A program made the translations under genes and the position numbers. A stretch of 64,000 bases of DNA from Gemmatimonadota bacterium (GTDB taxonomy: Bacteria; Gemmatimonadota; Gemmatimonadetes; Palauibacterales; Palauibacteraceae), in contig OZ220691.1 in assembly GCA_965116475.1 (NCBI GenBank), forward strand, positions 2,656,001-2,720,000, written 5' to 3'. The notes below the pieces were generated by a model. It saw nothing but the letters and a program-made list of their open reading frames with translations. It was not told the DNA's origin and ran no database searches. Below are positions 38,549 to 57,947 of this stretch, piece by piece. Numbering within the stretch: the first letter of the stretch is position 1; the number at the start of each line of letters is the position of its first letter.

Positions 38549-41500
38549 ATGACCAAGCCCATGCGGAGGCACCACTACACGACCGGGAACGAAAACAGGA
38601 TTGCCGGAGCGGCGGCCGGATTGCTCCTTGCGTGCGCCGGGCTGCTCGCCGCGGCGCTCCCGGCCGAGGCGCAGACGACCTACATCAGCAATACCGGGCA
38701 GACGTACGATCCGGACTTCAGCTACCTCGTAGGCCCCGACCACATTGGCGGACAATACTCATACGCACAGCAGTTCACGACGGGCAAGGAACCGGGCGGG
38801 TATGCGCTGGGTTCGGTCGAGCTGTACCTGCGCCACGTCGGCCGGATGGATGTGCCGAAGGTGAGCATTTACACCGTAACGAGCGATGATCCGGGCCGTA
38901 GCGTTTACGTGCTGACCAACACCCGGGCGGGCGAGTACGTCCACAACAGCCTCGTCACGTTCACCGCGCCGCCGCGGGCGACCCTCGCGCCAAATACGCC
39001 CTATTTCGTGGTGGTGGAGGCGGTGGACGGAGCCTTTGGCGTCGGGGGGACGGACGCGCTCTCGGAAGATGCGGGGAGTGCGGGCGATTGGAGCCTCAGA
39101 GGCGCGCGCCACTGGAGGAATACCGACGCCGGCAATTGGTTCGCGACGACACCGCCGTTGCGCATCGCGGTCAAGGGCCTTGGCCCCAACACCGCCGCCA
39201 CCGGCCAGCCATCGATCTCCGGCGCTCCTCGGGTGGGCACGATCCTCGTCGCGGGGCTGGGAACCATCGCCGACGTCGACGGTCTGCCGTGGACGTTCCC
39301 GGACGACTACACGTTCCAGTGGGTGCGGGTGGACGGGGGCACCGAGACGGACCTCAGCGGGGAGACGTCGCATACCTACACGTTGGGCACGGCCGACCTC
39401 GGCAAGACGATCAAGGTGAGGGTCAGCTTCGCCGACGCCAGAGAGAAAGCCGAGGGGCCGCTTGAGAGCGACGCGACGGGGCCGGTGACGGAGGCGAGGG
39501 AGATCCCCGGCGACGAGATCCTCGACGCGACCCTGACGGTCGGTCGAAACGGCTACGGGTGCGGCCGGGAGGGGGACAACCAATGCGGCGCACAAATGAG
39601 TCAGCACGCATTCTCCAGCACCGACGCGCTGGGCGTGTCGAGGAGGTTCACGATCACTGCGCTGGGGATCGATGCGACCCAGCAGCAGTTGTGGTTCCAG
39701 GTTTCAACGCAGCTCAGCGACTACGAAAAGCACAACCTGGTGCTCGTGCTGGGCGGCTGGCGCTTCGCCTTCCGGACCGCCAACTCCCAGGCCAGCAGCA
39801 GTCTGTTCAAGTTCTGGAACGACGCCGGGCTGTCCTGGGCCGCGGGGCAACAGGTGCAGGTGCAGATCGTGGACGCGGACAACCCCCCGTCGACCCCGCG
39901 CGTGCCGTCCGTGCGCGTGGCCGATGCGGAGGCGCACGAGGCCGACGGCACCATCGACTTCAAGGTGACGGTGAACCGGCCGCTGCAGGGTGACAGGCCG
40001 TTGCTTCATACCGTCACGGTGGACTATGCGACCTCGGACGGCTCGGCGAAGGCGGGCGAGGACTACGAGCAAAAGTATGGCACGCTGACGTTCCCGCGGG
40101 ACGAAACCGAGCAGACGGTATCGGTGCGGCTGATCGACGATGCGGTGGAGGACGACGGGGAGACCTTCACGCTGACGCTGAGCGATGCGAAGAGGGCGAC
40201 GATCGCCGACCAGTATGCGACGGGCACCATTCGCAACAGCGAGGATCCCGGGCTCAGCGTGGCGGACGCGAGCGCGACCGAGGGCTCCGCGGTCGTGTTC
40301 ACGGTGTCGCTGTCGCGGTCGAACAGCGAGCCGGTGACGGTTGCGTACGCGACCTCGGGCGGCACGGCGACGAGCGGGATCGACTTCACGGCGGCGTCGG
40401 GGACGCTGACGTTCGCGGCGAACGAGATGTCGAAGACGGTGAGCGTGGAGACGACCGACGATTCGGCCGGCGAGGAGGACGAGACCTTCACGCTGACGCT
40501 TTCGAGTCCGACGAACGCGACGCTGACGGACGCGTCCGCGACCGGCACCATCAACAACGACGATGGCGAAGTCGTGCCGCTGACGGCGGAGTTCCAGAAC
40601 GTGCCGGCGACTCACGACGGGTCGACCGCGTTCACGCTCCGGGTGTTGTTCAGCGAGGCGCTTGCGCCGGGTGGCTCGGGGCGCAAGCTCGCTCGGGGGC
40701 TCGCGCTCACGGGGGCCACGGCGGGGACGGTGCGCCGGGTGGATGAGCGGCGCGACCTCTACGAGTTTCCGGTCCGGCCCTCGGGGACGACGGCGGTGAC
40801 GGTGTCGCTGTCCGCGACGACCGACTGCGCGGCCGACGACGCGTTGTGCACCGCGGAGGGCAAGGCGCTGTCGCAGGCCGTGTCGGCGACGGTAGCGGGC
40901 CAGACGGTCACTCCTGAGCTCAGCGTGGCGGATGCGAGCGCAGCCGAGGGGTCGGCGGTGGCGTTCACGGTGTCGCTGTCGGAGGCGAGCAGCGACAGCG
41001 TGACGGTCGCGTACGCGACCTCGGGCGGCACGGCGACGAGCGGGACCGACTTCACGGCGGCGTCGGGGACGCTGACGTTCGCGGCGAACGAGACGTCGAA
41101 GACCGTGAGCGTGGTGACGACCGACGACTCGGACGACGAGGAGAACGAGACCTTCACGCTGACGCTGTCGAGCCCCACGAACGCCACGCTTGGAGACTCG
41201 ACGGCGACCGGTACGATCAACGACGACGATGGTGAGGTCGTGCCGCTGACGGCGGAGTTCCAGAACGTGCCGGCGGCCCATGACGGGTCGACCGCGTTCA
41301 CGCTCCGGGTGTTGTTCAGCGAGGACCTGGCGCCGGGGGGCTCGGGGCGCAAGCTCGCCCGCGCGCTCGCGCTCACGGGGGCGACGGCGGGGACGGTGCG
41401 CCGGGTGAACGAGCGGCGCGACCTCTACGAGTTCCCGCTGCGGCCCTCGGGGACGACTGCGGTGACGGTGTCGCTGTCCGCGACGACCGACTGCGCGGCC

Positions 41501-57947: not shown

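What the first reader, a model, noticed from the sequence alone, without database searches (positions are those of the whole stretch)
38549..57947. Candidate adhesin-dedicated sulfo-glycosylation system: OTase, two sulfotransferases, GT2, MurJ-like flippase and priming transferase between two Calx-beta adhesins
Seen: six glycan genes form two convergent, tightly coupled blocks. One continues directly from adhesin 1 (gap of about 12-27 bp); the other shares a divergent promoter region with adhesin 2. There is no Wzz/Wzc/Wza and only one GT. Established: priming transferase + GT + flippase + Wzy_C-domain OTase is the logic of en-bloc bacterial O-glycosylation (PglL type), and sponge aggregation factors are Calx-beta proteoglycans that adhere through Ca2+-dependent sulfated glycan epitopes. 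Inference: the cassette builds a very short (about disaccharide) sulfated glycan on undecaprenyl-PP and transfers it to the Ser/Thr-rich adhesins, possibly mimicking a host adhesion code. Host and substrate are unknown.
Basis: partly seen in the sequence, partly recalled or inferred. Interest (0 to 1): 0.85.

Follow-up and report, generated by a model that had tools for sequence, protein, structure and literature searches.

The report
Mobile sulfated-glycan cassette beside giant adhesins
Six tightly packed genes for building a short sulfated sugar chain on a lipid carrier lie between two giant adhesin genes, and related gene sets in several bacterial phyla often lie beside such adhesins too, which suggests but does not prove that the sugar is attached to them.

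Summary
Between two Calx-beta giants lie a WaaL-fold Wzy_C enzyme, two paralogous sulfotransferases, one GT2, a MurJ-family flippase and a small priming transferase, in two convergent blocks with overlapping or abutting junctions.

The Wzy_C enzyme belongs to a small family (336 representatives) with a 13th helix and a periplasmic helical domain. Among 79 related loci, 33 carry the orthologous GT2 and/or priming transferase; at least 21 of these also carry a sulfotransferase, and 18 carry a giant adhesin-like gene, against 4 of 46 loci without the cassette. Near-identical cassettes occur in different phyla, so the cassette is mobile.

Three points weaken the case. A relatedness-aware test of the adhesin link is not significant. 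The PglL-specific motif is absent. Nothing here separates transfer to protein from polymerisation or ligation to lipid.

MurJ is replaced by Wzx in 11 loci. The one-GT design holds only for the window's own clade. A host-mimicry role was not tested.

Best reading: a short sulfated glycan, transferred to the neighbouring adhesins (confidence about 0.45).

The parts
36023..38410 (-). Hybrid regulator (GAF-PAS-HisKA-HATPase-receiver-Trans_reg_C), divergent from adhesin 1
   Evidence: Pfam. Homologues of 59, 54 and 51% identity lie in cassette loci L004, L062 and L007 (Pfam), so it travels with some cassettes.
38549..43372 (+). Adhesin 1: signal peptide, choice-of-anchor R domain, 4 Calx-beta stretches with interleaved ~110-aa repeats, and a Cys-Gly-Gly / hydrophobic / Arg-rich tail followed in frame by a lipoprotein-like domain
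   Evidence: S+T is 20.5%.
43385..45334 (+). WaaL-fold Wzy_C glycan transferase with a 13th helix and a C-terminal periplasmic helical domain (about residues 520-649). Candidate O-oligosaccharyltransferase.
   Evidence: Pfam. Profile hit to WaaL 7tpg, E 5e-17. AlphaFold model pLDDT 88.2, pTM 0.89. Foldseek to WaaL, TM 0.65 by target. R343 and H389 are invariant.
45331..46014 (+). Sulfotransferase ST1 (Sulfotransfer_4), no membrane segment
   Evidence: Pfam 46.5 bits against 22.8. PDB relatives 9kf1 and 8y9p. PAPS-loop residues invariant in all 14 sequences aligned.
46023..46997 (+). Family-2 glycosyltransferase with a hydrophobic C-terminal part; the only GT of the cassette
   Evidence: Pfam Glyco_tranf_2_3 and Glycos_transf_2. 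Start read. Orthologues with E <= 1e-100 in 24 of 79 loci.
46994..48547 (+). MurJ-family flippase
   Evidence: TIGR01695 339.7 bits against 235.55. 57% identical to the MurJ next to Wzy_C in L004. Best named relatives are alphaproteobacterial.
48548..49249 (-). Sulfotransferase ST2, paralogue of ST1
   Evidence: Pfam. 67% identity to ST1.
49246..49960 (-). Small priming phosphoglycosyl transferase (Bac_transf). Start codon uncertain; the open frame runs to 50073.
   Evidence: Pfam 188.7 bits. TIGR03025 C-terminal part. Homologues in 27 of 79 loci.
49961..50103 (.). AT-rich divergent intergenic region between the priming-transferase block and adhesin 2
   Evidence: Sequence. Promoter-like site on the minus strand at 50003-49976.
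50104..57947 (+). Adhesin 2 (ORF open from 50052): choice-of-anchor R, SWM and Ig-like repeats, Calx-beta, and the same tail as adhesin 1
   Evidence: Its 3' 1.8 kb is 94% identical to that of adhesin 1.
58086..60923 (+). Third LRR plus Calx-beta surface protein. It shares the Ser-rich / dockerin-like tail but ends just after Cys-Gly-Gly.

Best explanation
The cassette builds a short sulfated glycan on undecaprenyl phosphate and hands it to an acceptor in the periplasm.

Proposed steps:
1. The small Bac_transf enzyme primes the lipid with a sugar-1-phosphate.
2. The single GT2 adds a second sugar.
3. The two soluble PAPS-type sulfotransferases sulfate the lipid-linked unit on the cytoplasmic face.
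4. The MurJ-family protein flips it. Wzx does this in other versions of the cassette.
5. The WaaL-fold Wzy_C enzyme transfers it to the acceptor. Its catalytic loop and extra helical domain both face the periplasm.

I take the acceptor to be the co-encoded giant adhesins as they cross the periplasm, that is, en-bloc O-glycosylation.

What is shown and what is inferred:
- Shown: the gene families, the motifs, the fold, the operon geometry, and the recurrence and mobility of the cassette.
- Inferred: the order of steps, sulfation before flipping, the size of the glycan and, above all, the protein acceptor.

I put about 0.85 on 'sulfated lipid-linked glycan cassette' and about 0.45 on 'the glycan goes onto the adhesins'. 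The confidence given below is for the second claim.
For: 1. Families and couplings.

2. Ligase or OTase-type catalysis:
- A profile of 25 family members hits only WaaL 7tpg among solved structures (E 5e-17). The Arg and the HAHN..E motif are aligned, and R343 and H389 are invariant.
- The model has pLDDT 88.2, and its best fold match is WaaL.

3. An extra 13th helix and a periplasmic helical domain follow the WaaL-like core, whereas WaaL 7tpg is 413 aa:
- The domain alone models at pLDDT 91.6.
- Its best fold matches are all TPR proteins, though weak.
- It is confined to this family: 336 of 1.84 billion representatives.
- A review reports a C-terminal TPR motif after Wzy_C in the O-OTases PglL and WsfB (PMC2943079, passages of section 3.2.3).

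4. Synteny across 79 loci:
- 33 loci have the orthologous GT2 and/or priming transferase.
- 18 of these 33 have a giant adhesin-like ORF within 10 kb, mostly as the next gene.
- 4 of the 46 other loci do (Fisher p 1e-5).
- Within Pseudomonadota the counts are 11 of 21 against 0 of 14 (p 9e-4).
- In three Spirochaetia loci without nearby GTs, an ORF ending in Calx-beta abuts the Wzy_C start.

5. Co-transfer:
- Wzy_C is 82-83% identical between Acidobacteriota and Alpha- or Gammaproteobacteria loci (tree).
- The adhesins next to L041 and L056 are 53% identical over 747 aa.

6. No second polytopic membrane protein: 24 of 26 unassigned ORFs in cassette loci have no hydrophobic segment, and the other two have 1 and 2. 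No Wzz, Wza or Wzc hit appears in the 13 fully annotated loci.

7. 46 of 79 family members stand away from glycan genes. 20 of the 76 tree rows are from Chloroflexota. From general knowledge these lack lipid A, so a lipid A acceptor cannot be general for the family.

8. Sulfation is a recurrent partner:
- Sulfotransfer_4 in 13 loci and Sulfotransfer_2 homologues in 14. The two sets together cover 21 of the 33 cassette loci.
- Arylsulfotransferases in L025 and L031, and a PAPS synthase fusion in L037.
- APS kinase in L021 and a SulP permease in L024.

9. Precedent: pglL and pilO genes often lie next to their target genes (PMC3643930, abstract and passages).
Against: - No PglL_A (PF15864) hit in the window protein or in any of the 25 members. 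TPR models hit only 4 of 25 members, at E 0.007-0.03. No fold match to the C-terminal domain reaches E 0.001.
- The only solved relative is a lipid A-core ligase.
- The independent-pairs test on the Wzy_C tree finds only 8 usable pairs. The adhesin trait goes with the cassette in about 2.4, against it in 0.2, and shows no difference in 5.3 (median p 0.5). The Fisher tests treat related loci as independent.
- 15 of 33 cassette loci show no adhesin-like gene within 10 kb. Two of these are short contigs.
- The adjacent giants belong to many different families, and none outside the window shares the window adhesins' tail (0 hits).
- The second cassette clade (Wzx, 3-4 GTs) looks like an ordinary Wzx/Wzy polysaccharide cluster.
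- Gene calls in the loci are stop-to-stop ORFs picked by a composition rule, so small genes may be missed.
- There is no direct evidence that any of these proteins is glycosylated.
Confidence: 0.45

Rival explanations
1. The cassette is a Wzx/Wzy-type pathway for a sulfated polysaccharide, such as an O-antigen, capsule or exopolymer. In the window's clade this could be a glycosaminoglycan-like sulfated disaccharide repeat. The Wzy_C protein polymerises the flipped units. Ligation or export genes lie elsewhere. The adhesins are neighbours only because both belong to surface or host-interaction islands.
For: - Priming transferase, GTs, flippase and one Wzy_C membrane protein is the standard content of such clusters. 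The second clade has Wzx and 3-4 GTs.
- The sulfated exopolysaccharide synechan is made by a cluster with two sulfotransferases, eight GTs, Wzx, Wzy and a co-polymerase, and its outer-membrane exporter is encoded elsewhere (PMC8205485, passages read).
- The relatedness-aware test of the adhesin link is not significant.
- 15 of 33 cassette loci have no adhesin-like gene within 10 kb.
Against: - No co-polymerase or exporter family was hit in the 13 fully annotated loci or in the window.
- The enzyme aligns with WaaL through the His/Arg motif and carries an extra periplasmic domain.
- 46 of 79 family members sit away from glycan genes. From general knowledge that is unusual for a repeat-unit-specific polymerase.
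- The family is 40-60% identical across phyla, whereas polymerases are generally poorly conserved (general knowledge).
Confidence: 0.27
2. The Wzy_C protein is a WaaL-type ligase. It puts one short sulfated unit on lipid A-core or another lipid anchor, giving a sulfated lipo-oligosaccharide. The adhesins are unmodified.
For: - WaaL is the only solved relative by sequence and by fold.
- There is a single Wzy_C gene and no polymerase candidate.
- The unit is short (one GT) in the window's clade.
Against: - The protein is 649 aa with a 13th helix and a conserved periplasmic domain. WaaL 7tpg (413 aa) has neither.
- No lipopolysaccharide core genes were seen in the window or in the annotated loci.
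- The wider family includes 20 Chloroflexota tree rows, a phylum that lacks lipid A by general knowledge.
- Feature-based look-alikes with Wzy_C plus TPR are commonest in Actinomycetota, Chloroflexota and candidate-phyla bacteria (a lead only).
Confidence: 0.13
3. The MurJ gene is the cell's housekeeping lipid II flippase that merely sits here. The glycan cassette would then lack its own flippase or be incomplete.
For: - It passes NCBI's equivalog cut-off for MurJ.
- It is 45-50% identical to proteins named MurJ in cultured Alphaproteobacteria.
Against: - Its start overlaps the GT2 stop.
- It is 57% identical to the MurJ beside Wzy_C in L004. That is in line with the other cassette proteins: 59-72% for Wzy_C, GT2, ST2 and the priming transferase.
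- Its 57-65% relatives lie on contigs whose lengths match those of Wzy_C hits in 8 cases, or 9 counting the window's 97%-identical near-copy. This matching is an inference from contig lengths.
- Its closest named relatives are alphaproteobacterial, whereas the window's closest named Wzy_C relative is labelled Gemmatimonadetes.
- Wzx takes the same place in 11 loci.
Confidence: 0.1

Closest known systems
PglL / PilO (TfpO) / WsaB-WsfB protein O-oligosaccharyltransferase systems
   Same: - A Wzy_C-domain membrane enzyme uses a lipid-linked glycan built by a priming transferase and GTs and then flipped.
- The conserved Arg/His catalytic residues are shared with WaaL.
- A review reports a C-terminal TPR-type part for PglL and WsfB.
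- The enzyme gene often lies next to the target gene (PMC3643930 and PMC2943079, passages read).
   Different: - No PglL_A motif.
- The C-terminal domain is a family-specific helical domain that is only weakly TPR-like.
- The glycan genes include one to three sulfotransferases.
- The presumed targets are giant Calx-beta, cadherin, fn3 or LRR proteins rather than pilins or S-layer proteins.
- The cassette moves between phyla.
WaaL O-antigen ligase (structure 7tpg)
   Same: Fold (TM 0.65 by target) and the sequence of the catalytic periplasmic loop.
   Different: About 230 extra residues forming a 13th helix and a periplasmic domain. It is not in a core-oligosaccharide locus. Family members occur in Chloroflexota.
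Synechan (xss) sulfated exopolysaccharide cluster of Synechocystis
   Same: Sulfotransferases sit inside a lipid-carrier glycan gene cluster with a flippase and a Wzy-type protein, and a two-component regulator lies beside it (PMC8205485, passages read).
   Different: xss has eight GTs and a co-polymerase and makes a polymer. The window has one GT, no co-polymerase, Sulfotransfer_4 enzymes and flanking adhesins.
Sponge aggregation factor (Calx-beta proteoglycan with sulfated glycans)
   Same: Only the pairing of Calx-beta proteins with sulfated glycans. I saw search listings for PMC11670116 and PMC5400394; the rest is recalled.
   Different: It is a eukaryotic system with no homology of the machinery. 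No link to it was tested here.

Membership tests
PglL-type O-oligosaccharyltransferase | Wzy_C domain with the conserved Arg/His residues shared with WaaL | tested here: met
   Wzy_C in 25 of 25 members. R343 and H389 are invariant and align to the WaaL motif. The residue roles come from PMC3643930 (passage read).
PglL-type O-oligosaccharyltransferase | PglL_A motif (Pfam PF15864) flanking Wzy_C | tested here: not met
   No hit at E <= 0.01 in the window protein or at E <= 1 in any of the 25 members. PilO, a proven O-OTase, also lacks it (PMC3643930, passage read).
PglL-type O-oligosaccharyltransferase | C-terminal TPR-type periplasmic part | tested here: inconclusive
   A helical domain is modelled at pLDDT 91.6. 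The best fold matches are TPR proteins but only at E 0.07-0.4. TPR Pfam models hit 4 of 25 members weakly.
PglL-type O-oligosaccharyltransferase | Transfer of the glycan to Ser/Thr of a protein | not testable with these tools
   Needs glycoproteomics or reconstitution.
WaaL O-antigen ligase | WaaL fold and catalytic loop | tested here: met
WaaL O-antigen ligase | About 400-aa, 12-helix protein without a further domain, encoded with lipopolysaccharide core genes | tested here: not met
   649 aa, a 13th helix plus a domain. 7tpg is 413 aa. No core genes in the window or in the 13 annotated loci.
Wzy polymerase of a Wzx/Wzy pathway | Encoded inside a cluster with flippase, priming transferase and GTs | tested here: inconclusive
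   True for 33 of 79 loci and not for the other 46. Wzx is present in 11 loci.
Wzy polymerase of a Wzx/Wzy pathway | Partner co-polymerase (Wzz/Wzc) and exporter | tested here: not met
   No such Pfam hit in the window or in the 13 fully annotated loci. They could lie elsewhere in the genomes.
PAPS-dependent sulfotransferase (Sulfotransfer_4) | Pfam model above its cut-off, and 5'-phosphosulfate and 3'-phosphate binding motifs | tested here: met
   46.5 and 41.7 bits against 22.8. G12, C16-G17-T18-T19, T98-R99 and S107 are conserved in all 14 sequences or all but one. The motif names are recalled.
MurJ lipid II flippase | TIGR01695 equivalog score | tested here: met
   339.7 bits against 235.55. 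Whether its substrate is lipid II or the cassette glycan is not testable here.
Small monotopic phosphoglycosyl transferase (Bac_transf) | Bac_transf domain with one N-terminal hydrophobic helix and no large N-terminal membrane domain | tested here: met
   Pfam 188.7 bits, residues 77-260 of a frame of at most 275 aa.

The most novel reading that the evidence does not exclude
A horizontally shared 'sulfo-glycocalyx' island. A dedicated, previously undescribed class of O-oligosaccharyltransferase (WaaL fold plus a family-specific periplasmic domain) decorates giant Calx-beta, cadherin or LRR adhesins with short, heavily sulfated glycans. Bacteria of at least six phyla that appear to share a habitat exchange the enzyme set together with adhesin genes. 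On this reading they would display an animal-matrix-like sulfated proteoglycan surface for attachment to, or tolerance by, a host.
Probability: 0.2. Interest if true: 0.9.

Novelty: new variant of a known kind. Interest (0 to 1): 0.68.

Why it matters
If the glycan goes onto the adhesins, this would be a natural bacterial system that makes sulfated proteoglycan-like surface proteins. My literature searches did not turn up such a system. The synechan paper states that sulfotransferase genes had not been found in other bacterial exopolysaccharide clusters (PMC8205485, passage read).

Even under the rival readings, the cassette shows that sulfated envelope glycans are encoded well outside cyanobacteria. 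It also shows that they are exchanged between phyla as a compact module.

The module is only 6.7 kb, which is small enough to test directly in a laboratory strain. It could also offer a route to defined sulfated glycoconjugates.

Tried and rejected
- Independent-pairs test of cassette against adhesin on the Wzy_C tree. It had 8 usable pairs and a median p of 0.5, so it is underpowered and not significant. Five loci (L034, L037, L052, L062, L067) were not in the tree because their matches were partial.
- My HMM 'ST2b' was built from two 772-aa stop-to-stop ORFs that run antisense over GT2 and Wzy_C. It therefore hit nearly every cassette locus. I discarded it and counted only the 'ST2' model.
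- I do not count the fused forms as evidence. P0064 (Wzy_C plus sulfotransferase) has a divergent junction. P0103 joins a MurJ C-terminal part to half of a Wzy_C. Both look like frameshift or deletion products.
- Habitat: a search for the family names in the record titles gave 6 papers with nothing decisive. The idea that these are sponge-associated bacteria rests on my recollection of typical taxa and on the abundance of eukaryote-like repeat proteins. I did not pursue the origin of any record.
- Rfam and the tRNA scan found nothing in the window.
- The window adhesins' sorting-like tail and lipoprotein-like end have no counterpart in the 79 loci (0 hits each).
- I did not run complex prediction, because an enzyme with its substrate is a poor case for it.
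- Not possible with 10-kb flanks: a second murJ, waaL, wzz or wza, and the genome-wide density of adhesin genes.
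Full report
**What is in the window**

The window has about 70% G+C. It is crowded with genes for giant surface proteins carrying LRR, Big_2, He_PIG, cadherin-like and Calx-beta domains.

- a Wzy_C protein (43385-45334);
- a Sulfotransfer_4 protein (45331-46014);
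- a GT2 (46023-46997);
- a MurJ-family protein (46994-48547);
- on the other strand, a small Bac_transf priming transferase (49246 to about 49960);
- a second Sulfotransfer_4 protein (48548-49249), 67% identical to the first.

The junctions were read from the sequence:
- Twelve bases separate the adhesin 1 stop from the Wzy_C start.
- Three junctions are start/stop overlaps.
- The two blocks meet stop to stop at 48547/48548, with no terminator-like site there.
- The minus block and adhesin 2 diverge from an AT-rich gap that holds the only promoter-like match in the region.

Small corrections are the GT2 start (46023), the likely adhesin 2 start (50104) and the uncertain start of the priming transferase.

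**The key enzyme**

The Wzy_C protein belongs to a well-conserved family of about 650 residues (129 hits, many at 40-65% identity).
- A profile of 25 members finds only WaaL (7tpg) among solved structures (E 5e-17). The alignment runs through the conserved Arg and the HAHN..E motif. R343 and H389 are invariant.
- The AlphaFold model is confident (pLDDT 88.2, pTM 0.89). Its best fold match is WaaL, followed by FtsW.
- Unlike WaaL (413 aa), the protein continues into an Arg-rich stretch, a 13th long helix and a helical domain of about 130 residues. By the helix count from the catalytic loop, this domain faces the periplasm. That placement is my inference.
- Modelled alone, the domain reaches pLDDT 91.6. 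Its nearest folds are all TPR proteins, but none reaches E 0.001.
- TPR Pfam models hit only 4 of 25 members, weakly, and none hits PglL_A.
- A profile of the domain finds only 336 representatives among 1.84 billion. In full-length hits it sits at about residues 470-690, so the domain is specific to this family.
- A review reports that the O-oligosaccharyltransferases PglL and WsfB carry a C-terminal TPR motif after Wzy_C (PMC2943079, passages of section 3.2.3). Feature-based look-alikes are Wzy_C-plus-TPR proteins of phyla without lipopolysaccharide (a lead only).

**The other enzymes**

- The sulfotransferases have no hydrophobic segment. In all 14 sequences aligned (the window's two and 12 from related loci) they keep the G..(K/R)CGTT loop and the TR....W..S motif. 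I recall these as the PAPS 5'-phosphosulfate and 3'-phosphate binding motifs. Solved relatives are sulfotransferases of natural-product pathways. Sulfation is therefore expected on the cytoplasmic face, before flipping; this is an inference.
- The MurJ protein passes NCBI's equivalog cut-off, but it looks like part of the mobile cassette. It is 57% identical to the MurJ next to Wzy_C in L004. Its 57-65% relatives lie on contigs whose lengths match those of Wzy_C hits in 8 cases, or 9 counting the window's 97%-identical near-copy (an inference from contig lengths). The next named relatives are alphaproteobacterial MurJ at 45-50%. The window's closest named Wzy_C relative, by contrast, is labelled Gemmatimonadetes.

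**Related loci**

One scan of species-representative genomes returned 79 loci with 10-kb flanks (253 stretches matched, 175 encode a relative, and the best 80 were kept). I searched them with HMMs seeded from the window proteins and with Pfam. Pfam covered all called ORFs of 110 aa or more of 13 loci, all ORFs of at least 610 aa in the other 66, the neighbours of Wzy_C in 22 further loci and spot checks.

- 33 loci carry the priming transferase (27 loci) and/or the orthologous GT2 (24 loci, E <= 1e-100). I call these cassette loci.
- Sulfotransferases accompany them often. Sulfotransfer_4 is in 13 loci and Sulfotransfer_2 homologues in 14. Together they cover 21 of the 33 cassette loci.
- Other sulfur links are arylsulfotransferases in two Spirochaetia loci and a PAPS synthase fusion in L037, an APS kinase in L021 and a SulP permease in L024.
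- The flippase is Wzx in 11 loci and MurJ in L004.
- Two cassette clades appear on the Wzy_C tree. The window's clade has one GT and two or three Sulfotransfer_4 genes, with the order Wzy_C, sulfotransferase, GT2 kept in L001, L002 and L005. The second clade has Wzx, a 1000-aa GT2 and further GTs.
- No co-polymerase or exporter family was hit in the 13 fully annotated loci. The unassigned ORFs of cassette loci include no second polytopic membrane protein: 24 of 26 have no hydrophobic segment.

**Link to adhesins**

A giant adhesin-like ORF (Calx-beta, cadherin, fn3, He_PIG, SWM, LRR or Ig-type) lies in 18 of the 33 cassette loci, usually as the next gene. It lies in 4 of the 46 other loci.
- The Fisher test gives p 1e-5. 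Within Pseudomonadota the counts are 11 of 21 against 0 of 14 (p 9e-4).
- The four exceptions are all Spirochaetia. In three of them an ORF ending in a Calx-beta domain, above Pfam's cut-off, abuts the Wzy_C start.
- The cassettes are mobile. Wzy_C is 82-83% identical between Acidobacteriota and Alpha- or Gammaproteobacteria loci, and the six Acidobacteriota rows need six changes on the tree. Flanks often hold transposases, toxin-antitoxin pairs, a RepA or an integrase.
- The adhesins next to L041 (Acidobacteriota) and L056 (Alphaproteobacteria) are 53% identical over 747 aa, so at least once an adhesin moved with the cassette.
- A GAF-kinase-receiver-DNA-binding regulator like the one at 36023-38410 recurs in L004, L062 and L007.

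Against the link:
- The loci are related, and the independent-pairs test on the tree is not significant (8 pairs, median p 0.5).
- 15 cassette loci show no adhesin within 10 kb.
- The adjacent giants are of many kinds.
- The background density of such genes in these genomes is unknown.

**Weighing the readings**

The chemistry (His/Arg loop, WaaL fold) points to a ligase or oligosaccharyltransferase rather than a classic polymerase. The following favour a protein acceptor:
- the extra periplasmic domain;
- the many family members away from glycan genes;
- the Chloroflexota members (20 tree rows);
- the absence of co-polymerase and exporter genes;
- the recurrent coupling to secreted giants;
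- the precedent that pglL and pilO genes lie beside their targets (PMC3643930, abstract and passages).

The following keep the rivals alive: the missing PglL_A motif, the ordinary look of the multi-GT clade, the non-significant relatedness-aware test and the lack of any direct evidence. The rivals are a sulfated polysaccharide made by a Wzx/Wzy route, as in synechan (PMC8205485, passages read), and a sulfated lipo-oligosaccharite made by WaaL-type ligation.

My odds are about 0.45, 0.27 and 0.13, with the rest unassigned.

**Novelty**

Searches for sponge, symbiont, sulfotransferase and O-antigen ligase found no paper with all four terms. Neither did the search for Calx-beta, sponge, symbiont and glycosylation. 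Further searches on sulfated polysaccharides of symbionts and on sulfotransferase with oligosaccharyltransferase found no description of this cassette. These cover only the held open-access library.

I file it as a new variant of a known kind. The logic is that of known en-bloc glycan transfer. New are the family-specific transferase, the built-in sulfation, the pairing with giant adhesins and the spread across phyla.

The host-mimicry idea remains untested.

Noticed in passing
window 42800-43372 and 57380-57947: Both adhesins end with a dockerin/EF-hand-like motif, Cys-Gly-Gly, a 13-aa hydrophobic stretch and about 35 Arg-rich residues. They then continue in the same frame, with no stop and no in-frame ATG, GTG or TTG, into a lipoprotein-like signal (..TTWSC) and a domain of about 115 aa. 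Elsewhere this last part is a stand-alone protein of 124-157 aa starting M..AVLLAATTAWSC (24 hits at 55-85% identity, no Pfam family). One hit, P0250, is also open upstream into a similar tail. This could be a fusion, a lost stop or an unusual start; it is unexplained.
   Followed up: partly
window 41586-43372 and 56152-57947: The 3' ends of adhesins 1 and 2 are 1.8-kb direct repeats, 94% identical. They bracket the cassette and the 5' 6 kb of adhesin 2. Recombination between them would delete the cassette. Shorter copies lie in 59957-60915.
   Followed up: partly
window 58086-60923: A third LRR plus Calx-beta protein shares the Ser-rich, dockerin-like tail but stops right after Cys-Gly-Gly. 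Its NCBIfam matches to type III effector families are LRR-driven and far below the cut-offs.
   Followed up: no
window 1-4059, 8357-10186, 22350-26612, 26634-31685: Four LRR/Big_2 giants share a C-terminal module with an HE..H..L.H.PCGG motif and weak Peptidase_M66 hits. They may be surface metalloproteases. The copy at 8357-10186 looks truncated or frameshifted at its end.
   Followed up: no
window 17395-18957: A tyrosine integrase with an Arm DNA-binding domain. No tRNA gene lies anywhere in the window, so no island border could be set.
   Followed up: partly
window 14079-17357: A 1092-aa acidic protein (D+E 17%) with repeated ..VDDD.. motifs and no Pfam hit at E <= 0.001.
   Followed up: no
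L025 and L031 (Spirochaetia), whole loci: The Wzy_C homologue is preceded by a Calx-beta ORF and surrounded by three arylsulfotransferase (ASST) genes. A PMT_2-type GT-C glycosyltransferase converges on it. This is a different way of pairing this enzyme family with sulfation.
   Followed up: partly
L037:2576-4867, L021:9316-9978, L024:15718-17619: Genes for sulfate activation or uptake lie beside family members: an ATP-sulfurylase/APS-kinase fusion, an APS kinase and a SulP permease.
   Followed up: no
L051:1-1518: One open frame, cut by the locus edge, carries LRR repeats and, further on, a partial Wzy_C match at 31.2 bits, just under the cut-off. It may be two genes read together or a remnant of a second transferase.
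   Followed up: no
L014, L017, L068, L070 (Chloroflexota): In the Chloroflexota clade the Wzy_C homologue is followed by a mannose-1-phosphate guanylyltransferase/isomerase gene. In L068 an NAD-dependent epimerase/dehydratase gene precedes it, and one lies about 1.4 kb upstream in L053. This suggests a mannose-based glycan there.
   Followed up: no
L034 and L035: These two loci lie about 4 kb apart on one chromosome, so one region of about 46 kb holds two family members. L002 and L005, and L001 and L026, are also pairs from single genomes.
   Followed up: no
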